Of a stretch of 64,000 nt of DNA, positions 38,405 to 63,716 are shown piece by piece. How positions within the stretch are numbered: position 1 is the stretch's first letter; each line of letters opens with the position of its first letter. The position numbers and the translations under genes were made by a program. This DNA comes from Bacilli bacterium (lineage in GTDB: Bacteria; Bacillota_I; Bacilli_A; RFN20; CAG-826): NCBI GenBank assembly GCA_017635465.1, contig JAGBLL010000059.1, positions 16,012-80,011 of the forward strand, read 5' to 3'. A model generated the notes under the pieces. The model ran no database searches. It was given only the letters and a program-made list of their open reading frames with translations, and was not told the DNA's origin.

Positions 38405-38406
38405 GA

Positions 38407-40425: not shown

Positions 40426-40426
40426 A

Positions 40427-42565: not shown

Positions 42566-42566
42566 A

Positions 42567-43628: not shown

Positions 43629-43670
43629 TGCTTTCTCCTTTCCCGCATTTGACTATATAAATGCTGTTAA

Positions 43671-43699
43671 ACTATACCACAATACGGACCATTCTTCAA
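43671..43699 (-). promoter_or_regulatory. Internal promoter for oppBCDF-esterase
   Basis: Minus strand reads TTGAAG (43694-43699) - 17 nt (the last 3 nt are TGG, giving an extended -10 TGn) - TATAGT (43671-43676). The AAGGAG SD and ATG (43628) lie about 35 nt downstream. Confidence 0.55.
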
Positions 43700-43706
43700 G
43701 AATGGT
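43688..43706. promoter_or_regulatory. Perfect 19-bp palindrome overlapping the -35 of the oppB promoter (operator candidate)
   Basis: ACCATTCTT-C-AAGAATGGT: 9-bp arms with a single central base. Confidence 0.45.
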
Positions 43707-43772
43707 ATTGTTTAAAAGGCCCTGAGGGCTAAATTTTCTAACAATACTAATAAAATATCTTGATTATTTCAA

Positions 43773-43802
43773 GAAAAAAAGCGACGCTTTGGCAGCATCG
43801 CT
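43773..43802 (-). terminator. Strong rho-independent terminator between the 524-aa lipoprotein gene and oppB
   Basis: Minus-strand RNA has AGCGAUGCU-GCCAA-AGCGUCGCU (9 bp with one G-U) followed by UUUUUUU. An A-run on the other side makes it potentially bidirectional. Confidence 0.8.
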
Positions 43803-43829
43803 TGTTTTTTTGGTTGATTCGTCAACTAA

Positions 43830-45404: not shown

Positions 45405-45417
45405 CTTAGTCTACCTC

Positions 45418-48525: not shown

Positions 48526-48528
48526 ATA

Positions 48529-51500
48529 CTATTTACCTCCTTCTTTTCTTTTTTTAAGGATTAGTAATGATGCGCCCATTAAAGCTGGGATAGCAATTGT
48601 AAGACTTAATGTCGCTAAAGCACCATTGCAACCTGATTTGGCGGCTGTCGCTTCTGGAATCACCACTGTTTGTGATGGATTTGTTGGAGCTGGTGTATTA
48701 GCAGGACCTGTAGCGGCGAACTTGGTGAGTCTGACATCACCTTTAATCTTTTCGCTCGCGCCTGTATTAGTATTAACAAAGGATACTTTATTATCAGCGG
48801 CTAATGTGAAGTCGTGATTGACGCTAAGGCCTGTGCCTTGGACCATGTCCGCACCTGCCATAAAGTCATCGAAGTCCTTGAAGTGAACGATACAACCTGT
48901 TCTGCCTCTAGCGAAGTCAGTCGCGCCGATGAATAATCTCTTATTGGCTAAACCTTCGGAGATTTCTTCGATACATTCATCAACGAATTCTTTGGATTCA
49001 TCAATGTAGTAGAGTTTCTTTTCATTATCGTATTGAAGATCAACACGGTTGTAACCGATAACACCATAGGAGAGTTTAACGTCGTCTAAGTAAATTCTGA
49101 CACGGTCTTCACCCACTAATTTGTATTGGGAAACACTCTTCACTACTGGAGCATCAGAGTCAATGTGGATGGTGTAAGAATTACTAACCCATGACTTGTC
49201 ATAAGCTAATTGATAATTGAATGTTAATTCGTATTCACCACTAGCGAATTTTTCGCCTGTTGTTTCATCGAATAATGGAACAATGGCGTAAGCTCTATGG
49301 GCAACGTAACCTGCTGATAAGTAACCAGCATCAACGTGTGATTTGTATAATGCCCATCTATCAGCGGTATCGCCGAAGAGCATATCTTCTAAAGCGGAGG
49401 TGTAAATTGCTTTACCTGTGGCTTTATCTTTAATTGTGAAATAGTTATCGTTAACAGATCTAAGCATGAATTGTTGGATGATCATTGTGTTGGTGTTTTC
49501 ACTACCAATGTAGATATCCTTGCTTGGTTCACTTGTGTATTCGTTATCAAGTGGATCTGTACCAACTTTGTAGAAGCCTGTTAAGCCATCGAACGCTAAG
49601 TCGTTTTCTAAAACTTTATCGATATTGATCTTTTGTGGAGCTTCAGCATAACCGGCAACGATCATGGATTCCATGTTAGCTTTATCTTTACCGACTAATG
49701 ATTTAGCAATGTCGTTAGCTAAATATGATGGATAAACTTTTGTTGGATCTTTTTCAAAGTTGAATGGTTCAGCAACTGGGACAGTTCTATAAGAAGCATC
49801 TGGGTTCTTATCTGTACCAGAATAGAAACCTAAATATGGGATGGATAAGTCAACACCATTGGCAGCTTTGTCTTTTAATGTGACGAAGCCTTCAATCATA
49901 CAACCATTTTCATAAACATCTAAGATTTCTTTCTTTTGTGTTTCTGTTAATGAGTATGGATTGATGGTAATTGTGCTTGTACCTGGGGCAACAGAGACTT
50001 GTTGACCAGTAATCTTGGCGATTTCAACATCTTTAACGGATTGAGCAGTATAGCTTGGAAGTGGTTCCCAGAAAACATCCGTTGTCGCGGAGTTGTAATA
50101 GTAACCTTTCTTAATAACTGTCTTTCTTGTTTCTTTGCCACCAGCGGCAACAGCAGCTTGGTCAGCTTCGTAGTCTTCTTGGCTAGCATAGTATTCGATG
50201 TCTTTGTCCGCTTTCACGGCGTCTTTATAAGCGACTTTACCAGTAGCGGTCATCATCTTTTCAAGATCTTTATCGTAATATCTCATACCACTGAACATTT
50301 CGATACTGTCAACAGTACCTTTGAAGTTATATTCTTTGGTAACGATATCATTTGGTTTAGCAATAGCTGGTCTCATGACTGTTAAGGTAACGTCATAATT
50401 CTTTGTTTCTTCGCTTTCATTGTGAGCTAAGAATGATAATTTGATATCACCTCTAGCGATGTCAGCGTTGTTTCTTAAAGCAATTTTGGCTTTACCGATT
50501 GGATTACCAGCAAGGTCTTTACCTTCTAAATAAACCTTTGTATTTAAAGCGCCGTTGAGGTCAACCATACCTGCGCCTTGAATTCTTGGTGAGGTGACGG
50601 AGAATGTTTCAACTTTGTCTTCTGGATTAGCTGTATAGTCTTTCATTGGATCAGCAGTTGACATCATTCTCATGTTAACTGTTTCTCTATAAGTATTGAT
50701 TTGGGCTAATTCTTCGTTTGTTAACTTTCTACCAGCAGCTTTAGCGGCTTGATAAATAGGAGCAGTAACTTCAGAAAGAACAACGGCTTGTGCACCAGCG
50801 TTATTTGGAGCGGACATAGATGTACCACTTAAGTATTGGTAGCATTTATATTTCATCGCTTCACGTTCTTCTTTTGTTAAGTTTGTCATGGCGTGTTCTG
50901 GAACAGCACCTCTAATGTTATCACCAGGAGCGGTGATTTCTGGTTTGAGATCTAAGTCAAATGTGGCACCATCAGTGGAGAATTCACTAACTGTGTATTT
51001 GGCTGGGTTATCACTAACTTGTTTGTTGATGATACCGAAAGAACCAGATTCAGCACTTTCAAAGAACGCTTTATCTTTAAATAAGACAAGGGCACATGGC
51101 ATTGTTGGGTTGAAACCATCACCGAAGCTACAACGGAAGTTGAAGCTGGAGGCTGTTGGGTCGTTATTGATAATGACAAGGGCGATAGCACCTTTATCAG
51201 CGGCAACAGCGTATTTATCAGCGAACGCTGTACTACCACGGTTAACGACGGCGATTTTGCCTTCAACGTTTAAGTTCTTATAATCAGCGGATGTACCAAA
51301 ACCTGGAACATAAACCCAATCAACTGTGCCGGTTGGATTACCTTCACCGTCTTGTGGGAAAACTTCTTTAATACGGAATTCTTTATCGTAGTCATCATCT
51401 AAACCTGGTCTATTGACGATTTGGTCTTCGAAGGCGATGTTCTTATTGCCGGCTACGAAAGCGTTTTCGTAGAAGATTTTGGTTGGGTGACCAGAAGCAA

Positions 51501-52731
51501 TGGTCATGACAGCAGCGTTATTAGCGTAGCTGGACATGATACCTGTTTCGACTGATTCTGGCATCCAGTTAGCATATGCACCTGTTGATGAATATGAGGA
51601 TTTACCAGAGTTACCAGCGGAAATAGAAGTTAAGATGGCTGGGATGCCATTTTCTGGATCGCCTTTGGCTAATCTTGTTAATGTTTTTAAAGTGATGGAT
51701 TCACTATCGAAGTCATCTAAGTCACTACCTAATGACATGTTGATGCCATCAACTTTCAATTTAATGCAGTCTTCTAAGGCATCTAAGATGGATGTGTCAT
51801 AAGCACCTGTTCTGTTGCTTAAGCCAATCTTTTCACCAATACCTTTAGCATCATAGTCTGTGAAGACCTTCATTAACGCTAATTGGGCTTTTGGAGCGAT
51901 ACCTTTGTAAGTTGGAGCATTAGCAGCGGTAATTGAGGAAACGTGTGAACCATGGTATGAAAGATCACTATGGACATCGTGTTGTAATGGACCACGTTTA
52001 CCGTAAACTTTACTATAACCGCCGTAGTCGTAATAGAATGGAACTTTATTGTTAAGATATAAAGAACCTTCTTGACCAGCCTTTTTAATTTTGTTTCTAG
52101 AAGCGACTAAGCCAACTGTACCTTTGATGTCGTCAAATGTGTATCTGACAGCCACATCGCTGGCCAATGGATCAAAGACTTCGTGGTGCCATTCAGGAAT
52201 GGTGACACCATTGACTTTGGTTTCGGCTCTAAAATGGAATTCGTTATCGAGAATAGCAACAATTGTACCTTCACCTTCGTTATTGTCTTCAGGCAAATGC
52301 ATTGTTTCAGCAGAGATATTCTTGCTTTCATCGACTGCGTCATTAGCATTACCTCCATCGAGTGTAATGTAGGAGTCATTGTTGATTTCTCTTTCCCAGT
52401 GGAGTCTATCAACAGTCACGCTCTTGACGCCAGGAACTGATTTAATGCTCTCAATGTCATTAGAATTTACTTCAAGAACAAATGCGTTATTCAAGACTGT
52501 GTAATTTCCAATCATTCTAATGTTGGATGTTGCGGCTTGTTTAATATTTTCATAAACAGCAGCTTGAGCCTTTTTGGTTTCGTTTGCGTCTAATTTATTG
52601 AGTTTCTTGTTAACTTCAACAATGACGCGAGCATCACGTTCTGGTAAATCTTTGAGCTGAGAAGCAATTGCACCACATCCGGCTAAAACCATAGCACCAG
52701 TGGCACAGAGTAGTAGTCCCAGTTTTTTCAT
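48529..52731 (-). CDS. Cell-envelope subtilisin-like serine protease (S8, lactocepin/C5a-peptidase-like) with lipobox and C-terminal TM anchor
   Basis: 1400 aa. Lipobox VLAGC and an I9-like propeptide. Catalytic blocks are VAILDNEF (Asp), HGSHVSSI (His) and LSGTSMSAPNNAG (Ser). A PA-domain insertion is present (GKIAVVNRGSTAFADK..ALVIINND). A long beta-rich stalk follows. C-terminus is SGCNGALATLSLTIAIPALMGASLLILKKRKEGGK. GGAGG is the SD. Confidence 0.9.
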   Translation of the reverse strand: MKKLGLLLCATGAMVLAGCGAIASQLKDLPERDARVIVEVNKKLNKLDANETKKAQAAVYENIKQAATSNIRMIGNYTVLNNAFVLEVNSNDIESIKSVPGVKSVTVDRLHWEREINNDSYITLDGGNANDAVDESKNISAETMHLPEDNNEGEGTIVAILDNEFHFRAETKVNGVTIPEWHHEVFDPLASDVAVRYTFDDIKGTVGLVASRNKIKKAGQEGSLYLNNKVPFYYDYGGYSKVYGKRGPLQHDVHSDLSYHGSHVSSITAANAPTYKGIAPKAQLALMKVFTDYDAKGIGEKIGLSNRTGAYDTSILDALEDCIKLKVDGINMSLGSDLDDFDSESITLKTLTRLAKGDPENGIPAILTSISAGNSGKSSYSSTGAYANWMPESVETGIMSSYANNAAVMTIASGHPTKIFYENAFVAGNKNIAFEDQIVNRPGLDDDYDKEFRIKEVFPQDGEGNPTGTVDWVYVPGFGTSADYKNLNVEGKIAVVNRGSTAFADKYAVAADKGAIALVIINNDPTASSFNFRCSFGDGFNPTMPCALVLFKDKAFFESAESGSFGIINKQVSDNPAKYTVSEFSTDGATFDLDLKPEITAPGDNIRGAVPEHAMTNLTKEEREAMKYKCYQYLSGTSMSAPNNAGAQAVVLSEVTAPIYQAAKAAGRKLTNEELAQINTYRETVNMRMMSTADPMKDYTANPEDKVETFSVTSPRIQGAGMVDLNGALNTKVYLEGKDLAGNPIGKAKIALRNNADIARGDIKLSFLAHNESEETKNYDVTLTVMRPAIAKPNDIVTKEYNFKGTVDSIEMFSGMRYYDKDLEKMMTATGKVAYKDAVKADKDIEYYASQEDYEADQAAVAAGGKETRKTVIKKGYYYNSATTDVFWEPLPSYTAQSVKDVEIAKITGQQVSVAPGTSTITINPYSLTETQKKEILDVYENGCMIEGFVTLKDKAANGVDLSIPYLGFYSGTDKNPDASYRTVPVAEPFNFEKDPTKVYPSYLANDIAKSLVGKDKANMESMIVAGYAEAPQKINIDKVLENDLAFDGLTGFYKVGTDPLDNEYTSEPSKDIYIGSENTNTMIIQQFMLRSVNDNYFTIKDKATGKAIYTSALEDMLFGDTADRWALYKSHVDAGYLSAGYVAHRAYAIVPLFDETTGEKFASGEYELTFNYQLAYDKSWVSNSYTIHIDSDAPVVKSVSQYKLVGEDRVRIYLDDVKLSYGVIGYNRVDLQYDNEKKLYYIDESKEFVDECIEEISEGLANKRLFIGATDFARGRTGCIVHFKDFDDFMAGADMVQGTGLSVNHDFTLAADNKVSFVNTNTGASEKIKGDVRLTKFAATGPANTPAPTNPSQTVVIPEATAAKSGCNGALATLSLTIAIPALMGASLLILKKRKEGGK

Positions 52732-53919: not shown

Positions 53920-56811
53920 TTACCAAATTTTAATTCTTTGTTCTTCTGGAACATACATCGCATCACCTGGTTCAATGCCATATGTTTCCACGAATTCATC
54001 GAATTGAGAAAGAGTAACATTAACTCTTAAATAATTGAATGGGTGAGGATCTTGTGCTCTATTTTCAACCTCACCAAGATTAATTGGATGGCTTGCCCAG
54101 ACATAGGCAAATGTTCTAAAGAATTTATCATAGTCAAAGTTTTCAACTTTCTTCGCCAATTGAAGAGCAATTTTCATACCACCCATATCAGCGGTCGCTT
54201 CACCATCAACAGTGTCGCCGTTGACGTTATAATTGTGCTTTAGTTCGATTTTATTATAGAAAGATATTAATTTGTTAACTTTAGTGTTGAAAGCAGACTT
54301 ATCTTCCGCAGTCCACCACTCATTTTGGTTACCATTTTCATCGAATTGAGAACCGCTCGAGTCAAAGGCGTGGGTAATTTCGTGGCCAATAACCATCGCT
54401 AGCATACCATATTTTTCTTCAACACTACTACCAAGGAAGCCTGATACTAAACCATTCAGAATGACAAATGAATTATCGGTAGGAGAATAGAAAGCGTTAA
54501 CCACGTAGCAGCGCATTGAATCAAACATTGCTAATTCCTCACTGCTCGCAAGAAGCATAGTGTCGACGTCTTTATTTAAATATGCTTTATAGATATCAAA
54601 CAAATTTTGAGGAGTAAGGCCTTCGCCTATCACCTTGCCAAATTTTGTATAGTAATCTGCAAAGCATGAGACGTATGACATCTTTTCTAGTTTTCTTTTC
54701 ATCTTGTACTTTGTCATAGCACTAAGCCAAGAATTATCCGCTAATGTTTTGTATGCATCTAAAACATCTTCGATTAATGCAGCAACTTCTGCCTTAATTT
54801 CTTCAGAACTGATAGTTTCAACATATGCTTGTTCAAATATGGTTGAGAAACATGTTTTAAGCATACCTTTTGCGATAGTGTCATCGTCATACCAATATAG
54901 GTTCGCTTCTTGGCTATAATAATCTGCCATCTGTGAAATGTATTGGTTAATGGTTTTATACTTATCAATACCCACTAAGAAACGCATATCATAAGCCAAG
55001 CGAGTGATAACCATATCTTTAAGATATTGATCTGAATTATTGAACATCATATTCAAACCATTAAGGTATATCTTATTGAATGAAATTCTTGTAGTAGGAG
55101 CCATGCCTAAATCAGTCAATGCAGATTTAACTTCAGCCCACGGCAATTGACTTAGTTTATATGTTGTTGTGCCAGAAACTCCACTATAGGCATCTGAATA
55201 AATCTTATAAAATATTTGATATTCCCGATCCTTAATTGAAGAAATATCGCTATTGCTATAACCGAGATTAAAGTAACTTGATAATTTAGTGAGAATGTTT
55301 GCAGCGCTAGAAGTTGTATTACCAAACAGCCATGCAAATTGAAGCGTGGAATAGGCTCCATTAAAGTATCCATCGTTAAGAGTAAGTTTATAACCATCAT
55401 CTGTTGGAGAAAGTTTTAATAATGAACTCTTAGAAGCAAAAATAGCTTTGGAATTAAGATATGTTTCTGCATCAAAATTTTGGAAATATGATGTCACAGC
55501 ATCAATAGCACCGTTTTTGAAATAGCCTAGAGCATCTCTTAATGCATCACCATTAGTGGTTTCATTAACAACATCACCACTATAAATGGCATCAAATACA
55601 GAATCTGCGATATCGCTGCATTCATCGAAAGCGCCACCACCGTTATCTCTAATTCTTTCGTAGTTAATTGATGTATAGAAGTCATCCTTCAATGACGGCT
55701 TTTTGATTTTATTAATTTCACCAACAATATTTGCGTTAATCCAAGGAGCGCCATTGATGTCACTTAATGTATATCCTGTTCTAGTTTCATATTGGACAGG
55801 GGTGAAAACAAATGTACCTGTCGCATTATATTCGGCGGTATATGTGACATTTTCGGTCACTTTTTTAATTTCTGGTGACCAACCCTTGAAAGTAAATTCG
55901 GCATTAGGTTTATTATTTCTTACTGGTTCTTGTCCATCATATGTTGGAACTGTGCCATATAGAACTTCTTTATCAACTTCTAAAACAGAACCATCATAAT
56001 TAACCCAAGTGACAATATATTTTCTAACTTCACTATTATATGAAGCTGTATATTCAGCATCACCGGTCACAGATGTAACACTTGGTGACCATTTATCAAA
56101 GACATATGAAAATTCAGCGGTGCTTTCTTTAACTGGGACTTCATCTCCATAGCTTGGAACAGTGCCATATGGGACTTCATCTTCTTTTAAAACAGTACCG
56201 TCATCATCTTTCCATGTGACTTTATATTTTCTTAACTCTTGTTTAAAAGAAGCTACATATGTTGTATTTCCAGTAATTGGACCTTCGTTAGGAGACCATT
56301 TATCAAATGTATAATCGTATTCAGCAGTACTAGCTTTAGTTGGTGTTTCTCCATCGTATGTAGGAGTGGTTCCATAGAAGACATCTTCGCTCTTTAACAC
56401 ACTACCGTCTTCGTTCTTCCAGGTAACTGTGTACTTATTTGTTTCGGTTTTAAATGTGGCGACATATTCAGCATTACCGGAAACTGGCTTCACTTCTGGA
56501 GTCCAACCAGTCCAAATATATGTGAACTGTGCATCACTTGCGCGGCTTGGGGTTAAACCATCGTATGTTGGAGTCGTATCTTTTTGAACATTTTCGTCAA
56601 TTTCTAAAACCTTGCCATCATAGTTTTTCCATGTGATGGTATAGGTTACTGGTTTTGGTGCTTCAGAACTACTGCTAAAAACACTACTTGGAGCAGCGCT
56701 TGATTGATCACTAGATTGACTTAATGATTCACTGCTTGTTTTAACATTGCAGCTGGTTAATAGGATAGATAATGTTCCGATAACCGCTAGTAAATTAATA
56801 GACTTTTTCAT
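53920..56811 (-). CDS. Lipoprotein M13-family zinc metallopeptidase (PepO/neprilysin-like) with four N-terminal InlB-type B repeats
   Basis: 963 aa. Lipobox LLTSC and a Ser-rich linker. Four ~67-aa repeats (YTITWKNYDGKVLE..TPTYDG..FTYIWTGWTPEV..). C-terminal HEITHAFD (HExxH), GEATADMGG (ENIAD-type block), NAFYSP and final W. Confidence 0.9.
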   Translation of the reverse strand: MKKSINLLAVIGTLSILLTSCNVKTSSESLSQSSDQSSAAPSSVFSSSSEAPKPVTYTITWKNYDGKVLEIDENVQKDTTPTYDGLTPSRASDAQFTYIWTGWTPEVKPVSGNAEYVATFKTETNKYTVTWKNEDGSVLKSEDVFYGTTPTYDGETPTKASTAEYDYTFDKWSPNEGPITGNTTYVASFKQELRKYKVTWKDDDGTVLKEDEVPYGTVPSYGDEVPVKESTAEFSYVFDKWSPSVTSVTGDAEYTASYNSEVRKYIVTWVNYDGSVLEVDKEVLYGTVPTYDGQEPVRNNKPNAEFTFKGWSPEIKKVTENVTYTAEYNATGTFVFTPVQYETRTGYTLSDINGAPWINANIVGEINKIKKPSLKDDFYTSINYERIRDNGGGAFDECSDIADSVFDAIYSGDVVNETTNGDALRDALGYFKNGAIDAVTSYFQNFDAETYLNSKAIFASKSSLLKLSPTDDGYKLTLNDGYFNGAYSTLQFAWLFGNTTSSAANILTKLSSYFNLGYSNSDISSIKDREYQIFYKIYSDAYSGVSGTTTYKLSQLPWAEVKSALTDLGMAPTTRISFNKIYLNGLNMMFNNSDQYLKDMVITRLAYDMRFLVGIDKYKTINQYISQMADYYSQEANLYWYDDDTIAKGMLKTCFSTIFEQAYVETISSEEIKAEVAALIEDVLDAYKTLADNSWLSAMTKYKMKRKLEKMSYVSCFADYYTKFGKVIGEGLTPQNLFDIYKAYLNKDVDTMLLASSEELAMFDSMRCYVVNAFYSPTDNSFVILNGLVSGFLGSSVEEKYGMLAMVIGHEITHAFDSSGSQFDENGNQNEWWTAEDKSAFNTKVNKLISFYNKIELKHNYNVNGDTVDGEATADMGGMKIALQLAKKVENFDYDKFFRTFAYVWASHPINLGEVENRAQDPHPFNYLRVNVTLSQFDEFVETYGIEPGDAMYVPEEQRIKIW
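55825..56646 (-). repeat. Four tandem ~200-nt coding repeats (Listeria-Bacteroides / InlB B-repeat-like)
   Basis: Protein residues 56-329. Each unit starts Y(T/K/I)(I/V)TW(K/V)N.DG.VL and ends Y.A.(F/Y). Confidence 0.7.
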
Positions 56812-57275: not shown

Positions 57276-57388
57276 TCATTGATAATATTTTTCCTAATTT
57301 TTATTTTTTAAATTTTTTGTTGTTTTCTGCTCTTTGAGGTAATACCATTTTAAACAAATTTAAACACGAAAAGGAGAAAACGCAGTTT

Positions 57389-60300
57389 ATGAAAAAAATT
57401 TCAAAATTGTTTGTCGGCTTGGCTTTAGGTGGCATGCTCTTAACTGGCTGTAACTTAAGTGGCCCAGCTGCATCTTACAATGCTACAAACTATAGACAAC
57501 AAGATGTCTACAAGTTGTACGTTGCCGAAGGTGGCGCTCTAACATACGAAGAGTGGTTAGAATCAATCAGAGGCGCCGACGGCTCACAATTCTATGCTGA
57601 TGTCAATGACCCAACTGCAGCAGGTGGTAAAGATGGTGACGTGTTTGTTAACATCTCTTCCTGGGATCTCTTCTTAAAGATCGGTGGCAATTGGCAAAAG
57701 ATCGGCAACCTCAAAGGTGAACAAGGTCCAAAAGGTGACAAAGGTGATAAGGGTGACAAAGGTGACCAAGGTCTTCCTGGCGCTGATGGTTCCCAAATCT
57801 ATGCTGATGTCAATGATCCAGCAGCCGCTGCTGGTAAAGACAACGACTTATTCATCAACATCAACTCTTGGGATGTCTTCCTTAAAGTGAATGGTGCTTG
57901 GAATAAAGTCGGTAACATTAAAGGTGCTCAAGGCTTACAAGGTGAACAAGGCTTACAAGGTGTTGCAGGTTCACAAATCTTCGCCGACGCACAAGACCCA
58001 GCCGCTGATGGCGGTAAAGAAGGCGATTTATTCATTAATATCGCTACATGGGATGTCTTCCTCAAATTAAACGGTGCTTGGGCAAAAATTGGTAACATCA
58101 AAGGTGCTCAAGGTGAACAAGGTCCAAAAGGCGACAAAGGTGACAAAGGTGATCAAGGTGATAAGGGTGATACTGGTGAAGCTGGTAACTCATTCAGCAA
58201 TGGTTACGGTCGTCCAGATGATGCCGATGGCAAAGATGGTGACACATATCTCGATTTAAATAATTTAGATATCTACGCCAAGAACAATGGTCACTGGGCT
58301 AAAGTCAACAACATGAAAGAAGAACTCAGATGGGACTTAGAAGTCGAAACCGAAATGAACAAATATCTCGGTGGCGCACTCCCATTTGTTGATCTCAATC
58401 CTGATACAATGTATCACAGCTTCAGCACTTATTATGAAAGTTGGTATGGATTCGATCTTTATGTCATCGGTGATGATAACCCATACAACTTAGTCGAAGA
58501 CTATGGTGAAAGATTAATTGCTGCTGGTTTCGAATATAATCCAGCCGCAGCTGAATTCGGTGGAGATTACATCAAAACAACTCCAAGAGGCTATCAAATC
58601 GAAGTTTCCTTCAACTGGTTTGAAGCTTCATCAAGCTACGAAGCTGGTAACGAAATTGATGTTTACATGCCTCCATATGTTGATCCATATTCAGCAGAAT
58701 TCTTTGAAGATCTCGGATTCGAATTAGTCGAAGGTTATCCAAAAGATCTTGTCGACGCAACCCTTCAACTAGATCCTCAAGACCTTCCAGGTGTCAACCT
58801 TGATGGTGATTGGTATGTTGATAGTGACAAAAACGATATGGGCGCTGATGGTGTCTACTACTACGTTTTAGCCGCTACAGAAGGCGAATTCGCTGCTGAT
58901 TTAGCTGGCCAAGTTGAAGCACTCGGTTTTGAATATAATGAAGAATATGAATGTTGGCTTGATGAAAACCAAGATCGCGAAGTCGATATTATACAAAGAG
59001 ATGGTTGGACATTTGCTAAATTCTTTGGTCCAACACTCATGGAACCATACGATGAAGCATACTTCCTTGAAAACGGTTACAATGCAGTTGAAGGATTCCC
59101 AGATGAAATCGTTGAATTAGCTTACAAAGAAGACAACTGGTTCGATGGCGTTAATGTTGATGGTGATTGGTTTGCCAAGTACTCAACAACAAAATATGCA
59201 AGTGGTTCACACGCTGGTACAATGAGAACAACTGCTTATTTAGCAACAGAAGGTGACTACGTTGCTGAATTTGAAGCCAACATCCAAGAAGCTGGATTCT
59301 CGTGGGTTAGCAAATACTCTGACTGGGAATTAGCAACTAACGATATGGCTTGCATCACAGTCGAATATGTCCGTGGTTACACAATGATTTACATCGGTGG
59401 TGACTATCTCGATGATCCAGATTATGTTCCTGCAGAAAACGTTGAAGCACCAGAAGTTGCCGCTGCAATCGATGCATTCTTCGCTGATTATGACATTGAA
59501 ACAAATGCTCCAGCTTACTATGCTCCATCAACATACAGAGTTGAAGCAGGTAATGGCTTCATTAGAATCTACAATTCAGTTTTAGCTGATATGCAAGCTT
59601 ATGAAACAGCCTTAGTCGCTGCTGGTTGGACAACATCTCACCCAAGTGCAAGTCGGCCAAATGACTATGTTGCTACCCTTGGTGAAACAGGCGCTACATT
59701 AGCGATTGAAGAATATTCTTCATATGTCAAAATTACATTCTCTTACGAAGAACCAGTTCCTCCAATGACTGCTGCTGATGCCACTGCTGAATTATTAGCA
59801 TACTGGGCTACATTAGGAATTGATCCAGCTGATATCGAATTACCAGATTTCGAAACAGCTAACGGTGTCTATCTCTCTTCTGACCAATATGTTGAATCAA
59901 GTGGCTTCTATTTAGTGCAAGTTGGCAATGCTACTGCTGAAGAATACGCTGCTTACATCGAAGACTTAGAAACAGCTGGTTGGAATCTTGAATACTTCAA
60001 TAACACAGAAAGTGGCCTTACTGGTTATGCCTGTACATTCGGTGAATCAGGCACAGTCCCATGCATGGAAGTTCAAGATCACCTTGATGCTGGTTATGTT
60101 GCTATCTTAGCTTACAGTACATTCATTATGGGTGAAATCACACCTCAATCAGTTATCGCTAACATCGCTAGTATGGTTACACAAACAGGCGAATACGATG
60201 ATTTAGGTAACAATACATATGCTCTTGAAGCTGGTTACTTAGCTTCCAGCGTTTCACTTGACAAGATTATTGGTTGGATTGAAACAGCCTTTGTTCCAGA

Positions 60301-60478
60301 AGGCTTCACAATGGTTGAAGACTGGACACCAGATGTCTATGAAGGTATCGCTGCTCAAACTCGTACATATTACAACGAAGATGCTGACGTCGTTCTTGAA
60401 TTCAAAATCTTCTCATGGTCACATCCTACTGCTGGTGACATCAACTCATTCTACGCTAAAGCTTACTACGGTAACTAA
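57389..60478 (+). CDS. Lipoprotein with collagen-like Gly-X-Y tracts alternating with a ~45-aa conserved module, plus repeated acidic C-terminal modules
   Basis: 1029 aa. Lipobox LLTGC. G-X-Y runs are GEQGPKGDKGDKGDKGDQGLPGADG, GAQGLQGEQGLQGVAG and GAQGEQGPKGDKGDKGDQGDKGDTGEAG. Intervening modules read Q(F/I)(Y/F)AD..DP.A.GGK.GD.F(V/I)NI..WD.FLK..G.W.K.GN(L/I)KG. AAGGAG is the SD. Confidence 0.85.
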   Translation: MKKISKLFVGLALGGMLLTGCNLSGPAASYNATNYRQQDVYKLYVAEGGALTYEEWLESIRGADGSQFYADVNDPTAAGGKDGDVFVNISSWDLFLKIGGNWQKIGNLKGEQGPKGDKGDKGDKGDQGLPGADGSQIYADVNDPAAAAGKDNDLFININSWDVFLKVNGAWNKVGNIKGAQGLQGEQGLQGVAGSQIFADAQDPAADGGKEGDLFINIATWDVFLKLNGAWAKIGNIKGAQGEQGPKGDKGDKGDQGDKGDTGEAGNSFSNGYGRPDDADGKDGDTYLDLNNLDIYAKNNGHWAKVNNMKEELRWDLEVETEMNKYLGGALPFVDLNPDTMYHSFSTYYESWYGFDLYVIGDDNPYNLVEDYGERLIAAGFEYNPAAAEFGGDYIKTTPRGYQIEVSFNWFEASSSYEAGNEIDVYMPPYVDPYSAEFFEDLGFELVEGYPKDLVDATLQLDPQDLPGVNLDGDWYVDSDKNDMGADGVYYYVLAATEGEFAADLAGQVEALGFEYNEEYECWLDENQDREVDIIQRDGWTFAKFFGPTLMEPYDEAYFLENGYNAVEGFPDEIVELAYKEDNWFDGVNVDGDWFAKYSTTKYASGSHAGTMRTTAYLATEGDYVAEFEANIQEAGFSWVSKYSDWELATNDMACITVEYVRGYTMIYIGGDYLDDPDYVPAENVEAPEVAAAIDAFFADYDIETNAPAYYAPSTYRVEAGNGFIRIYNSVLADMQAYETALVAAGWTTSHPSASRPNDYVATLGETGATLAIEEYSSYVKITFSYEEPVPPMTAADATAELLAYWATLGIDPADIELPDFETANGVYLSSDQYVESSGFYLVQVGNATAEEYAAYIEDLETAGWNLEYFNNTESGLTGYACTFGESGTVPCMEVQDHLDAGYVAILAYSTFIMGEITPQSVIANIASMVTQTGEYDDLGNNTYALEAGYLASSVSLDKIIGWIETAFVPEGFTMVEDWTPDVYEGIAAQTRTYYNEDADVVLEFKIFSWSHPTAGDINSFYAKAYYGN
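57572..58309 (+). repeat. Three and a half tandem ~195-nt coding repeats (collagen tract + module), including 9-nt GGTGA(C/T)AA(A/G) Gly-Asp-Lys units
   Basis: Protein residues 62-307. Nucleotide similarity between units is visible, for example tgggatgtcttcct(t/c)aaa..aa(t/c)ggtgcttgg recurs at about 57869 and 58049. Confidence 0.75.
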
Positions 60479-60502: not shown

Positions 60503-60529
60503 AGGATCAGAGTAATCTGATCCTTTTTT
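60503..60529 (+). terminator. Rho-independent terminator after the collagen-like gene
   Basis: AGGATCAGA-GTAA-TCTGATCCT (9-bp stem) followed by TTTTTT. Confidence 0.85.
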
Positions 60530-60627
60530 AACGCACGCAATATTACACTTTTCTTAGTTTTGTCATTGTTTGATAAAATCAAAAAATATTACTTTTTCTT
60601 GCTAAATTCATCAATAAGCATAAAATG

Positions 60628-60668: not shown

Positions 60669-63600
60669 ATGGCAAACAAGTTAAAAAAATTGTTAGTTGC
60701 AGGTTCATTGGTGTCTAGCATCTTTGTAGCGTTAGTTGCTTGTAATAAACCACAAGGCCAATCTAATCAAAGCAATGCATCCACCACTCCCGCTGCTAGT
60801 GTTGTTTCTAGCGTTCCGGCTAGTAGCTTGCCAGGTGTTTCATCTGTGACACCTACACCAAGTTCATCTGCCGCGCCAAGTTCATCAGAAGCAATTTCTT
60901 CAAGTGAAGCTCCAGCGCCAGTCGTGTTAACAGGCATTACAGCAGTTAATAACCAAACAAGTTATGCATATGGCAACGAACAATTAGATCTTACAGTTAC
61001 CGCTAATTATTCTGACGGCACCTCTGTAACTATTACCGATTATCAAGTTACAGGTTATGATGCCACAAAGACTGGTGAGCAGAGCCTCACAGTGTCATTC
61101 GAAGGAAAGACATGCTCAGTCAAAGTTAAAGTTGATAATCCAGTGTTAGTCAATATCAGTGCTAGCACAAATAAAGAAGCCTACGAATACGGTGAAGACT
61201 TAGATATCATTGTCAAAGCCCACTACTCCGATGGTTCTGAAGTTGTAATCGATAATTACACAGTTACTGGTTACAACGCTGAAAATCCTGGTGAACAAGA
61301 TTTAACAGTTACTTATGAAGGTAAAACATGTAACTTAAAGGTTCTTGTTAATGATCCAGTATTAGTGAATATCACCGCAGTTAGTAACAAAGAAAGCTAC
61401 GAATACGGTGAAGACTTAGATATCATTGTTGTGGCTAAATACTCCGATGGTTCTGAAGTAACATTAGATAACTATGAAGTTACTGGTTATGACGCTCAAA
61501 ATCCAGGTGAACAAAACTTAACAGTTACTTATAAAGGTAAAACATGTAACTTAAAAGTTCTTGTTAACGAAAGGGAGAACAAATTCCCACTCGATAAGTT
61601 AAATAGTTTCTTACAATTAGAAAATATTACCACTCCTGTCATCTCCCCAGTCGGTTATGATGCTTGGGAAGAAAAAACTGAACCAGAACAAGATGGTAGC
61701 AAATACTTCATTGCTTCCACTAATGATGAAGGACAAGCGGGTGTTGATACAATTGCTGACCAATACGCTGTTGCCTTGCAAGCGGAAGGTTGGACAGTCA
61801 ACAACGATAATGGTTCCTATGTCGCTTACAAAGCAGAAGGCGACGTTGAAGTATCATTTAAAACAGTTAACAAAGTGTTCTCATTACGTATCAATTCATT
61901 CGTTGAATTCCCAAATCAAAAAATTACTGCTTCCCCAATTAAAACAAAAGCCACTATTGAAGATGGCCAAACAATTATCTTCGGTAATGTTGCAAAAGGT
62001 TTAGTTATTAATGACTTTGCAGATGGCAAATTAAAAGCAGAAAGTTGCAGATCTACTGATACCAAATTAGATGGTATTGAAAAAGATGTCTGGCGTTTCA
62101 CAATTAATAAAGTTGGTACCAGTTTCACATTCACTGATATCTATGGCAGAAAATTAGGCGCTACTGGTCTTGGTCAATTAGCTTTTGATGAAGGTTCTAC
62201 AGAATGGTCAATGGTTATCACATCTAGATCCACTATTATCGCTAACGCTAATAAAGATTTTGGTAAACTTTGCATCAATTTAGATAACAATACACTTACC
62301 ACTTATTCAAACGTTTTCGATGGTAACTTAGTGTACACACAAATTCTCAAATTATCTCAAGAAGAAATTATCTATCCAACAGGCATCGCTCTTGAAGGTA
62401 AACAAGAACTCGCAATCGGTAAAAAGAATAGCATCGATGTAAAATACATCCCAGAAAACGCTAATTCATTAAGCAAGATTACATGGTCTTCATCCAATGA
62501 AAGCATTGCTAAAGTTGATGAAAATGGTTTAGTTACTGCCATTGCAGCAGGTAACGCCACCATTACCGCTAAAACATTTGCTAAGAGAACAGTATTAGAA
62601 GCTTCATTCAATGTTGAAGTTAAAGAAGTTGTCTTAGATGCTTGGACCATTATGCTCTACATCTGTGGCGCTGACCTTGAAAGCGATAACGGCTTAGCAT
62701 CTTCTGACATTACTGAAATCTTAAAAGTCAACAATCAACCAGAAGACGTCAATATCATTATCGAAACAGGTGGTTCAACATCATGGCACAACTATGGTAT
62801 TGATGCTTCCAAACTATCCCGTTACCACGTTGAAAACAAATCCCTCGTCTTAGATGAAAAACTCACAAAAGAAAATATGGGTAAGCAATCAGTGTTTGAA
62901 TCATTCTTAACTTGGGGCTTACAAGAATATCCAGCAGAAAAAATGGGTGTTATCTTATGGAACCACGGTGGTGCTTTAGATGGTGTTTGCTTCGATAGCA
63001 CTGTTGGCTCAGACAATAGCTTAACCAATTCTGAAACCAAAGCAGCTTTCGAAAACGTCTTCCCAGCATTTGGTGTTAATAAGCTCGAATTCATCGGTTA
63101 TGACGCTTGCTTAATGCAAATTCAAGATATCGCTGAATTCAATTCACACTACTTCAACTATATGGTTGGTTCTGAAGAAGCTGAAGCCGGTGAAGGTTGG
63201 GTTTATGATAAGTGGCTTGATGATTTATATGAAGGCAAAGATACTCCAACAATTTTAAAAGCTAACTGTGATGCCTTCGTTGCTCAATATGGCGATGATC
63301 AAACTCTTTCTTACTTGAATTTATCCAAGATGGAAAACTATCACGCTAAATTTGAAGCGATGGCTGAAGCCATTAAGAGTACCGCTAAATCTAATTACAG
63401 TGCATTCAAAACATTGTTAAAGAGTGTCAAAGACTTTGGTGATATTAACTACTATTGGTATTCACAAAACGGCTATGATGCATATGGTGAAATCGATGGC
63501 TTAGACTTATTGAACAAACTTGGAAATAACGCCACTTATAGCGCATTCCAAGATGTGATTAATGAAGCTAAGACAGCATATACCTCATTAGTGGCATATT

Positions 63601-63716
63601 CTAGAAAAGGTAATGCCGCTGGCAACGCCAATGGCTTAGGCGTTATCTCTGGTGCTCCAGTTAACTATCCATCAAGTGAAACAGCATTCACTACTTGGAG
63701 AAGCATCTTCTACTAG
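60669..63716 (+). CDS. Lipoprotein clostripain-like cysteine protease (C11) with three Big_3-like repeats, an acidic AGW module, an unknown middle domain and a Big_2-like domain
   Basis: 1015 aa. Lipobox ALVAC and a Ser/Pro linker. Three ~72-aa repeats (..YEYGEDLDIIV.A.YSDGSEV..DNY.VTGY.A.NPGEQ.LTVTY.GKTCNLKVLV). ITWSSSNESIAKVDENGLVTAIAAGNATITA resembles Big_2. C-terminal C11 blocks are WTIMLYICGADLESDNG, VILWNHGGA (His) and FIGYDACLMQ (Cys). Confidence 0.85.
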   Translation: MANKLKKLLVAGSLVSSIFVALVACNKPQGQSNQSNASTTPAASVVSSVPASSLPGVSSVTPTPSSSAAPSSSEAISSSEAPAPVVLTGITAVNNQTSYAYGNEQLDLTVTANYSDGTSVTITDYQVTGYDATKTGEQSLTVSFEGKTCSVKVKVDNPVLVNISASTNKEAYEYGEDLDIIVKAHYSDGSEVVIDNYTVTGYNAENPGEQDLTVTYEGKTCNLKVLVNDPVLVNITAVSNKESYEYGEDLDIIVVAKYSDGSEVTLDNYEVTGYDAQNPGEQNLTVTYKGKTCNLKVLVNERENKFPLDKLNSFLQLENITTPVISPVGYDAWEEKTEPEQDGSKYFIASTNDEGQAGVDTIADQYAVALQAEGWTVNNDNGSYVAYKAEGDVEVSFKTVNKVFSLRINSFVEFPNQKITASPIKTKATIEDGQTIIFGNVAKGLVINDFADGKLKAESCRSTDTKLDGIEKDVWRFTINKVGTSFTFTDIYGRKLGATGLGQLAFDEGSTEWSMVITSRSTIIANANKDFGKLCINLDNNTLTTYSNVFDGNLVYTQILKLSQEEIIYPTGIALEGKQELAIGKKNSIDVKYIPENANSLSKITWSSSNESIAKVDENGLVTAIAAGNATITAKTFAKRTVLEASFNVEVKEVVLDAWTIMLYICGADLESDNGLASSDITEILKVNNQPEDVNIIIETGGSTSWHNYGIDASKLSRYHVENKSLVLDEKLTKENMGKQSVFESFLTWGLQEYPAEKMGVILWNHGGALDGVCFDSTVGSDNSLTNSETKAAFENVFPAFGVNKLEFIGYDACLMQIQDIAEFNSHYFNYMVGSEEAEAGEGWVYDKWLDDLYEGKDTPTILKANCDAFVAQYGDDQTLSYLNLSKMENYHAKFEAMAEAIKSTAKSNYSAFKTLLKSVKDFGDINYYWYSQNGYDAYGEIDGLDLLNKLGNNATYSAFQDVINEAKTAYTSLVAYSRKGNAAGNANGLGVISGAPVNYPSSETAFTTWRSIFY
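60924..61568 (+). repeat. Three tandem ~216-nt coding repeats (Ig-like Big_3-type domains)
   Basis: Protein residues 86-300. Units 2 and 3 share an identical 33-nt stretch, ctacgaatacggtgaagacttagatatcattgt. Confidence 0.75.

What the first reader, a model, noticed from the sequence alone, without database searches (positions are those of the whole stretch)
57572..58309. Collagen-like lipoprotein: Gly-X-Y tracts alternating with a conserved WD.FLK..G.W.K.GN.KG module
Three and a half tandem units each combine two parts. One is a ~45-aa module Q(F/I)(Y/F)AD(V/A)(N/Q)DP.A.GGK.GD(V/L)F(V/I)NI..WD(L/V)FLK(I/V/L).G.W.K(I/V)GN(L/I)KG. The other is a 5-9-triplet Gly-X-Y run rich in GDK/GEQ/GPK. Short collagen triple-helix tracts followed by GD.Y.D...W-type modules are familiar from phage tail fibres and spore or streptococcal collagen-like proteins. 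Here the architecture is fused to a lipobox and a ~720-aa acidic repeat region in a chromosomal protease neighbourhood. The 9-nt GGTGAYAAR units and ~195-nt repeats are obvious substrates for slippage or recombination, so the gene may be size-variable.
Basis: partly seen in the sequence, partly recalled or inferred. Interest (0 to 1): 0.7.

Follow-up and report, generated by a model that had tools for sequence, protein, structure and literature searches.

The report
Lipid-anchored collagen-like surface stalk protein
An uncultured rumen-type Erysipelotrichaceae bacterium encodes a lipoprotein whose membrane anchor is joined to an uncharacterised six-domain head by a stalk of short collagen tracts alternating with a small beta module also found in phage tail fibres; it is a real and interesting variant of the known bacterial collagen-like surface proteins, not a new kind of system.

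Summary
ORF 57389-60478 (+, 1029 aa) has a lipobox (Cys21). It then has four copies of a ~45-aa module (three at 60-69% identity, one divergent) separated by Gly-X-Y tracts of 9, 6 and 10 triplets, followed by a 719-aa acidic region (pI ~4) made of six related ~115-aa alpha/beta domains.

The module has no matching Pfam or NCBIfam model but is widespread. It occurs 427 times in 113 of the 120 best hits and is usually flanked by collagen. Carriers include pneumococcal PclA, a Haemophilus YadA-like autotransporter, phage tail fibres and, by fold search, giant-virus collagen-like proteins.

The gene is chromosomal, with no phage genes nearby. It lies among S8, M13 and C11 peptidases and an Opp-type transporter. 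A C11 peptidase lipoprotein follows it in 6 of 7 loci examined.

The head is rare (85 clusters among 1.84 billion representatives). Elsewhere it sits directly behind a lipobox on a short linker, so the collagen/module segment is an inserted stalk.

Triplet number varies within clusters of at least 90% identity, but almost only in relatives with one long tract.

Best reading: a trimeric, lipid-anchored stalk of roughly 25-30 nm displaying a binding head. Trimerisation and head function are inferred. It is a new variant of a known kind, of moderate interest.

The parts
57279..57307 (+). Promoter-like site (TTGATA, 17-nt spacer, TATTTT) about 80 nt upstream of the start codon. This is a weak consensus match only.
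   Evidence: The number of such sites in the region is no higher than in shuffled sequence, so this is only a candidate.
57371..57376 (+). Shine-Dalgarno sequence AAGGAG, 12 nt before the ATG.
   Evidence: Read directly from the sequence.
57389..60478 (+). Whole coding sequence of the collagen-like lipoprotein (1029 aa plus stop codon).
   Evidence: The identical protein is encoded on two ENA metagenome contigs. A 93%-identical orthologue is present in Erysipelotrichaceae MAG RUG12224.
57389..57451 (+). Lipoprotein signal peptide MKKISKLFVGLALGGMLLTGC. The lipobox is LTGC and Cys21 is the predicted lipidated residue.
   Evidence: Sequence. Cys21 and Leu18 are conserved in at least 90% of 37 family members. 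The AF2 model puts helix 2-20 here.
57491..57571 (+). Conserved two-helix motif YRQQDVYKLYVAEGGALTYEEWLESIRG (aa 35-61), immediately before module 1.
   Evidence: The family consensus is YRQQDIYQLYKAAGGxMTYEEWLxTVRG. AF2 predicts helices at 37-46 and 53-60. phrog_14726 (tail fibre) aligns with aa 38-136 at E 9e-9. A similar motif occurs in the Hena1 tail fibre.
57572..57715 (+). Module 1 (aa 62-109): GADGSQFYADVNDPTAAGGKDGDVFVNISSWDLFLKIGGNWQKIGNLK.
   Evidence: AF2 predicts four strands at 68-71, 85-88, 93-98 and 101-107.
57716..57796 (+). Gly-X-Y tract 1 (aa 110-136), 9 triplets, containing four KGD motifs.
57797..57922 (+). Module 2 (aa 137-178).
   Evidence: strands 137-140, 154-157, 162-167 and 170-176.
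57923..57976 (+). Gly-X-Y tract 2 (aa 179-196), 6 triplets, rich in GLQ and GEQ.
57977..58102 (+). Module 3 (aa 197-238).
58103..58192 (+). Gly-X-Y tract 3 (aa 239-268), 10 triplets, containing four KGD motifs. It is one triplet shorter than in the RUG12224 orthologue.
58193..58318 (+). Module 4 (aa 269-310), the divergent copy, of GKDGDTYLDLNNLDIYAKNNGHWAKVNN type. It joins the stalk to the head.
   Evidence: Most of its key residues (G281, G284, D285, D289, Y296, K298, G301, W303) are at least 90% conserved in the family.
58319..60475 (+). Acidic head (aa 311-1029) made of six related alpha/beta domains of about 115 aa each. The nucleotide ranges are D1 58319-58678, D2 58679-59023, D3 59024-59413, D4 59414-59758, D5 59759-60133 and D6 60134-60475.
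   Evidence: hhalign gives D2~D3 at P 99.9, D4~D5 at P 99.8 and D3~D4 at P 93.5. AF2 pLDDT is about 90 for the head in the full model and 95.3 for D1-D2 alone. The region has no Pfam, NCBIfam or PDB relatives. It matches only 85 representative clusters among 1.84 billion.
60503..60530 (+). Terminator-like hairpin with a 9-bp stem followed by TTTTTT, 25 nt after the stop codon.
60669..63716 (+). Adjacent lipoprotein with Big_3 (three copies), Big_2 and Peptidase_C11 (clostripain-like) domains. It is the conserved downstream neighbour and shares a head-type domain at aa ~308-405.
   Evidence: Pfam assignments are. The pairing is conserved in L003, L004, L006, L007 and L008. hhalign to head domain D4 gives P 93%, E 3e-7.

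Best explanation
The gene encodes a cell-surface lipoprotein built as anchor, stalk and head.

**Anchor.** After export and lipidation at Cys21, the N-terminus is held in the cytoplasmic membrane.

**Stalk.** Residues ~35-310 form a rod. A short two-helix motif is followed by four small beta modules that alternate with three Gly-X-Y tracts. Three chains are proposed to assemble in parallel. The Gly-X-Y tracts would form collagen triple helices, stabilised by Lys-Asp/Glu salt bridges (KGD/KGE triplets) rather than by hydroxyproline. The modules from the three chains would pack into trimeric beta nodes that nucleate each short helix and keep it in register. The 75 collagen residues give about 21 nm, and the four nodes would bring the stalk to roughly 25-30 nm. 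That is long enough to carry the head through or beyond a Gram-positive cell wall.

**Head.** The six-domain acidic, aromatic-rich C-terminal array is the functional, presumably ligand-binding part. It may work together with the adjacent C11 peptidase lipoprotein, which carries a homologous domain, in a locus devoted to extracellular proteolysis and peptide uptake.

**Origin.** The stalk cassette is shared with, and probably exchanged with, phage tail-fibre shafts.

**Shown:** the anatomy, the lipobox, the module's distribution, that the stalk is an insertion, the synteny, and the tract-length polymorphism.

**Inferred:** trimerisation, triple-helix formation, the node role of the modules, the stalk length, and what the head does.
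For: - **Gene and anchor.** The ORF has a lipobox, with Cys21 conserved in the family, and a Shine-Dalgarno sequence.
- **Collagen tracts.** Pfam Collagen scores above its threshold.
- **Selection on the Gly period.** Gly is kept at every third residue in all 63 tracts (743 triplets) of the family. Indels between close relatives are always whole triplets. This points to selection for a triple helix rather than a mere linker.
- **Helix stabilisation.** KGD is the commonest Yaa-Gly-Xaa triplet (18%), and KGE adds a further 3%. PMC11923368 reports that KGD/KGE form inter-chain salt bridges that stabilise triple helices across bacteria and viruses.
- **Module fold and context.** AF2 predicts each module as a four-strand beta unit with pLDDT 66-81. 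The module occurs between collagen tracts in proteins that are known or expected trimers: phage tail fibres and a YadA-like trimeric autotransporter.
- **Stalk as an insertion.** About 50 of the 85 head-domain relatives are lipoproteins in which the head motif W.xEIxxEMxxYLGExLPY follows the lipobox after a short Ser/Gly/Pro/Asn-rich linker, with no collagen.
- **Stalk length.** Collagen content per protein ranges from 36 to 84 residues. The window and P0006 both carry 75, in three tracts versus one.
- **Chromosomal context.** The locus contains a proteolysis and peptide-uptake gene set and no phage genes.
- **Link to the C11 peptidase.** A C11 peptidase follows the gene in 6 of 7 loci. It shares a head-type domain.
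Against: - No oligomer prediction or experiment was possible, so the trimer is inferred.
- The tracts are short (6-10 triplets) and poor in proline (12% at the X position, 5% at Y), so their thermal stability is uncertain.
- In the AF2 monomer model the tracts have pLDDT below 50. This is expected for a single chain and is uninformative.
- The head has no detectable relative of known function or fold, so a binding role is a guess.
- The gene has its own terminator-like hairpin, and the C11 gene has its own promoter-like sites. A head-only relative (P0190) is not next to a C11 peptidase. Because five of the seven loci are mutually syntenic, the pairing may simply be inherited gene order.
- The cell-wall architecture of this uncultured organism is unknown.
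Confidence: 0.6

Rival explanations
1. The protein is an adhesin in which the collagen-like region itself is the ligand-binding element, as in Scl1 of S. pyogenes. The stalk would then bind host, feed-particle or other microbial surfaces directly, rather than acting only as a spacer.
For: The closest characterised relative that has the same module/collagen alternation, PclA, mediates adherence to host cells (PMC9276737; PMC8968730). Tract length is polymorphic within near-identical lineages, as is usual for exposed, selected surface structures. This reading is not exclusive of the stalk model.
Against: NCBIfam Scl1, Scl2 and Lcl models score far below their cut-offs: 45, 31 and 26 bits against 400, 325 and 500. 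The tract sequences are simple charged repeats (GDK, GEQ) with no recognisable binding motif. The large conserved head domain would be left unexplained. The habitat is rumen or gut metagenomes, and no host-cell association is known.
Confidence: 0.18
2. The Gly-X-Y tracts do not form triple helices. They are flexible, charged low-complexity linkers between small independently folding beta domains, and the protein is a monomeric tethered lipoprotein.
For: The tracts are short and proline-poor. Head-only relatives use disordered Ser/Gly/Pro linkers in the same position. AF2 gives low confidence for the tracts.
Against: A plain linker does not need Gly at every third residue, yet the period is unbroken over 743 triplets and all indels are whole triplets. 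KGD enrichment fits helix stabilisation. The same cassette occurs in obligately trimeric fibres.
Confidence: 0.15
3. The gene is a prophage tail-fibre gene or a decayed remnant of one.
For: The N-terminal 300 aa match several PHROG tail-fibre families, the Erwinia phage Hena1 tail fibre and viral collagen-like proteins by fold search.
Against: No phage genes occur within about 25 kb upstream or in the 7 kb downstream seen on L001. The gene has a lipoprotein signal peptide. The locus is syntenic in genomes whose orthologues are only 35-45% identical. The C-terminal 70% of the protein is shared with non-collagen cellular lipoproteins, not with phage proteins. The best phage hit is 31% identical.
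Confidence: 0.03

Closest known systems
PclA, the pneumococcal collagen-like adhesin of Streptococcus pneumoniae (Paterson et al. 2008, as cited in PMC9276737 and PMC8968730)
   Same: It has the same ~45-aa module (GKDGDxYxDxxTGDxYxKxxGxWxKxGNIxG) alternating with Gly-X-Y tracts. It is surface-anchored. Its repeat number varies between strains. Its collagen region is described as interspersed with non-collagen segments.
   Different: PclA has a YSIRK signal peptide, a specific N-terminal domain (NF050821), a G5 domain, CFSR repeats and a C-terminal LPXTG anchor. The window protein has none of these. It is anchored at the opposite end by a lipid and carries an unrelated C-terminal head.
Phage tail-fibre shafts with collagen-like segments (PHROGs 3904, 15437, 819 and 14726; Erwinia phage Hena1 tail fibre) and giant-virus collagen-like proteins
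   Same: They share the cassette of a helical 'YE.W..S..G' motif, the beta module and short Gly-X-Y tracts. These are trimeric rod-like structures that hold a distal binding domain away from a base.
   Different: The window gene has no phage context, has a lipoprotein signal peptide, and has no phage-type N-terminal attachment domain or C-terminal receptor-binding domain. Identity to the best phage match is only about 31%.
Scl1/Scl2 of S. pyogenes, and the wider group of bacterial collagen-like surface proteins (BclA, Lcl, Bucl)
   Same: The logic is a collagen triple-helix stalk plus a globular domain on the cell surface. Triple helices form without hydroxyproline, and an adjacent folded domain nucleates trimerisation (PMC8968730).
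   Different: Scl proteins have one continuous collagen region, an N-terminal distal V domain and a C-terminal wall anchor. Here the polarity is reversed (N-terminal anchor, C-terminal head) and the helix is broken into three short tracts by folded modules. NCBIfam scores are far below the cut-offs.
Pfam CFSR (PF19079, collagen-flanked surface repeat)
   Same: The concept is the same: a ~45-50-aa repeat embedded between collagen tracts in Gram-positive surface proteins and trimeric autotransporters.
   Different: It is a different sequence family, of the type TPTVTVKDNGDGTHTITI... The window protein does not match it. In P0039 and P0090 the CFSR and the present module occupy different segments.
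[quoted passage not shown] This is an analogy only, from general knowledge.
   Same: N-terminal membrane anchor, an extracellular collagenous rod interrupted by non-collagenous segments, and a C-terminal ectodomain.
   Different: There is no homology. MACITs use a transmembrane helix rather than a lipid anchor, and a coiled coil rather than beta modules for trimerisation.

Membership tests
Bacterial collagen-like proteins (Pfam Collagen PF01391) | Uninterrupted (Gly-X-Y)n tracts recognised by the family model | tested here: met
   Three tracts of 9, 6 and 10 triplets. PF01391 scores 35.2 bits against a cut-off of 27.2.
Bacterial collagen-like proteins (Pfam Collagen PF01391) | Three chains form a collagen triple helix | not testable with these tools
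   Only monomer AF2 was available. The tracts have pLDDT below 50, which is uninformative. Indirect support comes from strict Gly periodicity, whole-triplet indels and KGD enrichment.
Bacterial collagen-like proteins (Pfam Collagen PF01391) | A folded trimerisation or nucleation domain next to the collagen region | tested here: inconclusive
   Four beta modules and a two-helix motif flank the tracts. They co-occur with collagen in trimeric fibres. Their oligomeric state was not tested.
Scl1/Scl2, Lcl and PclA adhesins (NCBIfam NF038330, NF038329, NF046116, NF050821) | Whole-protein score above the curated cut-off; LPXTG anchor (Scl, PclA); family-specific non-collagen domains | tested here: not met
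   Scores of 45.5, 30.7 and 26.2 bits against cut-offs of 400, 325 and 500, arising from the collagen tracts only. There is no hit to adhesin_PclA_N, which scores 1170 bits on true PclA. No LPXTG motif is present. The anchor is a lipobox.
Phage tail fibre | Sequence similarity to tail-fibre families | tested here: met
   phrog_3904 E 2.8e-27, phrog_15437 E 4e-18 and phrog_819 E 1.7e-15, all confined to aa ~38-310. The Hena1 tail fibre matches at 31% identity.
Phage tail fibre | Location in a phage or prophage, next to other virion genes | tested here: not met
   The neighbours are S8, M13 and C11 peptidases, an Opp-type ABC transporter, an acetyltransferase, a hydrolase and a VWA protein. The same chromosomal locus is found in diverged genomes.
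Phage tail fibre | No secretion signal; N-terminal virion-attachment domain and C-terminal receptor-binding domain | tested here: not met
   A lipoprotein signal peptide is present. The C-terminal 719 aa has no PHROG or viral match and is shared with cellular lipoproteins.
Bacterial lipoproteins (Lgt/Lsp substrates) | A positively charged n-region, a hydrophobic h-region and a lipobox [LVI][ASTVI][GAS]C within the first ~35 residues | tested here: met
   The signal peptide is MKKISK-LFVGLALGGMLL-TGC, with lipobox L-T-G-C21. Cys21 is conserved in at least 90% of the family. Actual lipidation was not testable.
Pfam CFSR (PF19079, collagen-flanked surface repeat) | Match to the CFSR model | tested here: not met
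   The target has no hit at E<=0.1. In P0039, P0090 and P0092 the CFSR matches different segments with a different sequence.
Pfam Phage_Cox (PF10743) | A single domain covering the Cox fold | tested here: not met
   The 36.6 bits are a sum of weak matches of the repeated module to profile positions 41-68 of 87, and no single stretch passes. The same artefact appears in P0002. I treat it as a false positive.

The most novel reading that the evidence does not exclude
A clade of rumen and gut Erysipelotrichaceae may have captured a phage tail-fibre shaft cassette and inserted it between the lipid anchor and a previously short-tethered head domain with no detectable structural relative. That would create a trimeric fibre of about 30 nm. 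Through the domain it shares with the neighbouring C11 peptidase, the fibre's head array could dock or organise surface proteases, giving a fibre-displayed proteolytic scaffold loosely analogous to a cellulosome scaffoldin. In this reading the collagen-flanked beta module would be a general, still unnamed 'register node' for short triple helices, used by phages, giant viruses and bacteria.
Probability: 0.1. Interest if true: 0.7.

Novelty: new variant of a known kind. Interest (0 to 1): 0.42.

Why it matters
Bacterial collagen-like surface proteins are studied as adhesins and as hydroxyproline-free collagen scaffolds for biomaterials. This family offers three things.

- It is a natural design in which very short triple-helix tracts are chained together by a small folded module. 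That module has no matching model in the Pfam and NCBIfam copies searched, no solved structure found by sequence search, and is used by phages, giant viruses, streptococci and Haemophilus autotransporters.
- It is a clear case of a phage-fibre shaft cassette placed in a cellular lipoprotein as a spacer.
- Its head domain is confidently predicted (pLDDT 95) but unlike any solved structure I could find, and it sits in a proteolysis locus of abundant but uncultured rumen bacteria.

A structure of the trimeric module would explain how interrupted bacterial and viral collagens keep their register. None of this overturns current understanding.

Tried and rejected
- **PDB sequence searches.** phmmer with aa 37-319 hit only collagens and the collagen part of the phage 80alpha fibre gp68. 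A profile of 65 diverse modules gave only sub-threshold hits to designed 'Cake' propeller blades. The head gave no hits.
- **Foldseek of the full model against PDB.** There were no credible matches, with TM at most 0.09 normalised by query length. It gave only weak hints of LpqN/PsbP/MTC28-like sandwiches.
- **Foldseek of the high-confidence D1-D2 model.** The best E-value was 0.29 and TM was at most 0.22. No fold could be assigned.
- **NCBIfam 'bluetail' domain.** E 0.097 on the target, and absent from other module-bearing proteins. It is not the module.
- **Pfam Phage_Cox, DUF6591, DNAG_N and DUF1799.** These were sub-threshold or summed-repeat artefacts.
- **Word-indexed homologue search with the head alone.** It returned only 7 proteins. 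The exhaustive search was needed.
- **BLASTP of the head against the C11 neighbour.** Nothing was found. Only the profile-profile comparison detected the shared domain.
- **HMM searches of all window ORFs** with the module and head-domain profiles found no further copies.
- **Literature searches.** I found no description of this module or of lipoprotein-anchored collagen-like proteins in Firmicutes. The Lukomski 2017 review was not held.
- **Rejected ideas.** Prophage remnant (context and lipobox); hypermutable contingency locus for this particular gene (the 9-nt units are imperfect at 75-76% matches, and the multi-module variants are nearly invariant in length).
Full report
**1. What is in the sequence**

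The finding lies inside one ORF, 57389-60478 on the + strand, which encodes 1029 aa. No ORF of 80 aa or more overlaps it on the opposite strand.

An AAGGAG Shine-Dalgarno sequence sits 12 nt before the ATG. A 9-bp hairpin followed by a T-run lies 25 nt after the stop codon.

The protein starts with a typical lipoprotein signal peptide, MKKISKLFVGLALGGMLLTGC. Next comes a conserved segment that AF2 predicts as two helices (aa 37-46 and 53-60).

After that, four copies of a module alternate with Gly-X-Y runs at aa 110-136, 179-196 and 239-268 (9, 6 and 10 triplets). The first three modules are 60-69% identical to each other. The fourth (aa 269-310) is 33% identical but keeps the key residues P, GK.GD, D, K, G.W and K.

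At DNA level the units are 192 nt long, spaced 207 and 180 nt apart, and only 67-70% identical. The period-9 arrays match at 75-76%.

Pfam Collagen passes its gathering threshold (35.2 bits against 27.2).

**2. The C-terminal region**

Residues 311-1029 are acidic (pI about 4.05) and rich in Tyr (9%). Profile-profile comparison of sub-alignments shows six related domains of about 115 aa:

- D2 to D3, probability 99.9
- D4 to D5, probability 99.8
- D3 to D4, probability 93.5

AF2 with a 37-sequence family alignment predicts them as alpha/beta domains at pLDDT of about 90. D1-D2 modelled alone reach pLDDT 95.3.

The region has no significant match in Pfam or NCBIfam and no PDB sequence relative. 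Foldseek finds no convincing structural relative for either the whole model or D1-D2; the best E-value for D1-D2 is 0.29 with TM at most 0.22.

**3. Organism and family**

The identical protein is encoded on two ENA metagenome contigs.

The closest genome is a MAG named 'uncultured Erysipelotrichaceae bacterium RUG12224'. It carries a 93%-identical orthologue in the same M13 / target / C11 arrangement.

About 36 further full-length relatives, at 32-60% identity, all come from metagenomes. Almost all have the same lipobox, N-terminal motif, modules, collagen and head. Several sample names carry study-style prefixes (STEW19, XIEF21, TONG22) that, together with the RUG name of the closest MAG, suggest ruminant-gut surveys. 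That reading is from memory and was not verified here.

**4. What the module is**

An HMM built from the window's four copies finds 427 copies in 113 of the 120 best hits. Of these, 315 have Gly-X-Y runs on both sides. The consensus over 65 diverse copies is G.....G.G.P....GKDGD.Y....T.D.Y.K..G.W...GNIKG.

Carriers include:

- PclA and related G5/LPXTG proteins of S. pneumoniae, S. mitis and S. vestibularis
- a Haemophilus haemolyticus YadA-like trimeric autotransporter
- other Bacilli lipoproteins and leucine-rich-repeat proteins
- the Erwinia phage Hena1 tail fibre
- a 'phage fiber-tail adaptor' protein

PHROG tail-fibre families match aa ~38-310 at E-values down to 3e-27. Foldseek against BFVD returns 79 viral proteins at E<=1e-3, including Orpheovirus, Megavirus and Mimivirus collagen-like proteins and many phage tail fibres.

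No curated model in the Pfam or NCBIfam copies searched corresponds to the module:

- Pfam CFSR (PF19079) is a different collagen-flanked repeat.
- NCBIfam 'bluetail' does not match it.
- The Pfam Phage_Cox score is a sum of weak repeats and is an artefact.

No solved structure contains the module by sequence or profile search.

AF2 predicts a four-strand beta meander for each copy at pLDDT 66-81. Hydrophobic residues alternate along the strands (VFVNI, LFLKI, WQKIG). That pattern suggests one buried face, which a 45-aa unit could bury by packing three copies around an axis. This last step is inference.

**5. The stalk is an insertion**

I ran an exhaustive phmmer search of the head against 1.84 billion representatives. 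It found only 85 clusters at E<=1e-3.

About 50 of these are lipoproteins of 150-735 aa. In them the head's opening motif, W(S)xEIxxEMxxYLGExLPY, follows the lipobox after a short Ser/Gly/Pro/Asn-rich linker, with no collagen. They have no significant Pfam domain and no names.

So the collagen/module segment occupies the position of a flexible tether in relatives. That is the strongest argument that it acts as a spacer or stalk.

Collagen content per protein ranges from 36 to 84 residues, or about 10-24 nm at 0.286 nm per residue. The window has 75 residues in three tracts, while P0006 has 75 in a single tract.

**6. Triple helix or linker**

This could not be tested directly. Three observations favour a helix:

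- Gly periodicity is unbroken across 63 tracts and 743 triplets in the family.
- Every indel between close relatives is a whole number of triplets.
- KGD is the commonest Yaa-Gly-Xaa triplet at 18%, with KGE at 3%. PMC11923368 shows that KGD/KGE form inter-chain salt bridges that kinetically stabilise triple helices, and that KGD is anomalously frequent across all domains of life and viruses.

Proline is scarce (12% at X, 5% at Y), so stability would depend on charge pairs and on the flanking nodes.

**7. Genomic context**

The surrounding genes are:

- *Upstream:* an Opp-type ABC transporter, including an unusually long SBP_bac_5 protein of 1035 aa; a 1400-aa S8 subtilase with a PA domain; and an M13 peptidase lipoprotein.
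- *Downstream:* a Big_3/Big_2/Peptidase_C11 lipoprotein, a hydrolase and a VWA protein.

No phage genes are present.

The downstream C11 peptidase accompanies the gene in the window, RUG12224 and the loci of P0002, P0006, P0016 and P0021. It is absent from the P0034 locus. The C11 proteins are 50-56% identical where the collagen-like proteins are 36-44% identical.

C11 residues ~308-405 are homologous to head domain D4 (hhalign probability 93%, E 3e-7).

Two cautions apply. Four of these loci share wider synteny with one another, and a head-only relative is not next to a C11 gene. The terminator-like hairpin and the promoter-like sites between the two genes also suggest separate transcription. 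A functional link is therefore possible but not shown.

**8. Size variation**

Within clusters of at least 90% identity, relatives with one long tract differ in triplet number while the rest of the protein keeps exactly the same length:

| Cluster representative | Triplets in the long tract | Length of the rest of the protein (aa) |
|---|---|---|
| P0020 | 13-21 | 729 |
| P0034 | 20-27 | 740 |
| P0030 | 16-26 | 740 |
| P0006 | 21-32 | 969 |

The multi-module, short-tract forms, like the window's, are almost invariant. Tract patterns such as 9,5,5; 9,10,4; 9,4,12 and 9,5 each show at most one variant member. The window and RUG12224 differ by one triplet, in tract 3.

Collapse of repeats in short-read assemblies is a caveat.

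**9. Comparison with known systems**

- **Function.** It resembles the stalk-plus-head design of Scl1/2, BclA and PclA, and of phage tail fibres. In topology (N-terminal membrane anchor, interrupted collagen, C-terminal ectodomain) it is closest to animal MACIT collagens, by analogy only.
- **Membership.** It meets the definition of a bacterial collagen-like protein (Gly-X-Y tracts, Pfam threshold). It fails the curated Scl1, Scl2, Lcl and PclA models and fails the contextual and architectural features of a phage tail fibre.
- **Sharing of parts.** It shares the module with PclA but none of PclA's other domains. Reviews describe PclA's collagen region as interspersed with non-collagen segments and variable in repeat number. 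The alternation itself is therefore known, though the module is not named in the papers I could read.

**10. Verdict**

The most likely mechanism is a lipid-anchored, trimeric collagen/beta-node stalk that projects an uncharacterised binding head from the surface of a Gram-positive gut bacterium. The stalk appears to be built from a cassette shared with phage fibres.

It is a new variant of a known kind. The new elements are the lipoprotein anchoring with reversed polarity, the head-domain family with no detectable relatives of known structure, the evidence that the stalk is an insertion, and the contrast between length-variable single-tract forms and length-stable multi-module forms.

Interest is moderate at 0.42.

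Noticed in passing
window 60669-63716 (+), aa ~308-405 of the C11 peptidase lipoprotein: This stretch ('...ADQYAVALQAEGWTVNNDNGSYVAYKAEG...') is homologous to head domain D4 of the collagen-like lipoprotein (hhalign P 93%, E 3e-7). BLASTP and single-profile HMM searches miss it. The two neighbouring lipoproteins therefore share an uncharacterised ~100-aa domain.
   Followed up: partly
window 37175-52731 (- strand): This is an extracellular proteolysis and peptide-uptake block. It holds a 1400-aa S8 subtilase with a PA domain, an unusually long (1035 aa) SBP_bac_5 binding protein, a 524-aa Big_2 protein, two Opp-type permeases (one 731 aa with a long N-terminal extension) and two ATPases with oligo_HPY domains.
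   Followed up: partly
window 53920-56811 (- strand), aa ~55-330 of the M13 peptidase lipoprotein: There are four tandem ~68-aa repeats of the type 'KYTVTWKNEDGSVLK...VFYGTTPTYDGETPTKASTAEYDYTFDKWSP' between the lipobox/Ser-rich linker and the M13 catalytic domain. They look like Listeria-Bacteroides (InlB B-repeat/Flg_new) repeats, but Pfam did not call them at E<=0.1.
   Followed up: no
window 57389-60478; also P0002: Pfam Phage_Cox (PF10743) scores above its gathering threshold (36.6 bits against 27.5) purely by summing weak matches of the repeated module to profile positions 41-68. No single stretch passes. This is a trap for automatic annotation.
   Followed up: yes
Family clusters of P0020, P0034, P0030 and P0006 versus those of P0021, P0016, P0004 and P0002: Within clusters of at least 90% identity, single long Gly-X-Y tracts vary by up to 11 triplets while the rest of the protein is constant in length. 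Tracts broken up by modules hardly vary. Interspersed modules may stabilise stalk length against slippage. Short-read assembly artefacts are not excluded.
   Followed up: partly
P0129-P0194 (relatives found): A sparse family of about 50 head-only lipoproteins has a lipobox, a short S/G/P/N-rich linker and then 'W.xEIxxEMxxYLGExLPY...'. They have no significant Pfam domain and no names in any source. It is an undescribed lipoprotein domain family.
   Followed up: partly
window 60503-60530 and 60560-60626: A strong terminator-like hairpin (9-bp stem plus T6) follows the collagen-like gene directly. Two promoter-like sites lie ahead of the C11 gene. The conserved neighbours are therefore probably transcribed separately.
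   Followed up: no
BFVD hits A0A2I2L5J8, A0A2I2L3G6, G5CS20 and others: Giant-virus (Orpheovirus, Megavirus, Mimivirus, Yasminevirus) collagen-like proteins are among the best structural matches to the N-terminal region, ahead of most phage tail fibres. This suggests the module/collagen cassette also circulates in Nucleocytoviricota. TM-scores are meaningless for such flexible models.
   Followed up: no
L004, L006, L007 and L008 (loci of P0002, P0006, P0016 and P0021): In these relatives the gene is preceded by a divergently oriented DUF6442 plus HTH_3-type (Xre-like) pair (the HTH gene was not detected in L007) and, in L006-L008, a GGDEF-EAL protein. It is followed by the C11 peptidase and, in all but the truncated L008, a PAD_porph (peptidylarginine deiminase-like) protein. 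In the window the upstream neighbour is instead the M13 peptidase.
   Followed up: no
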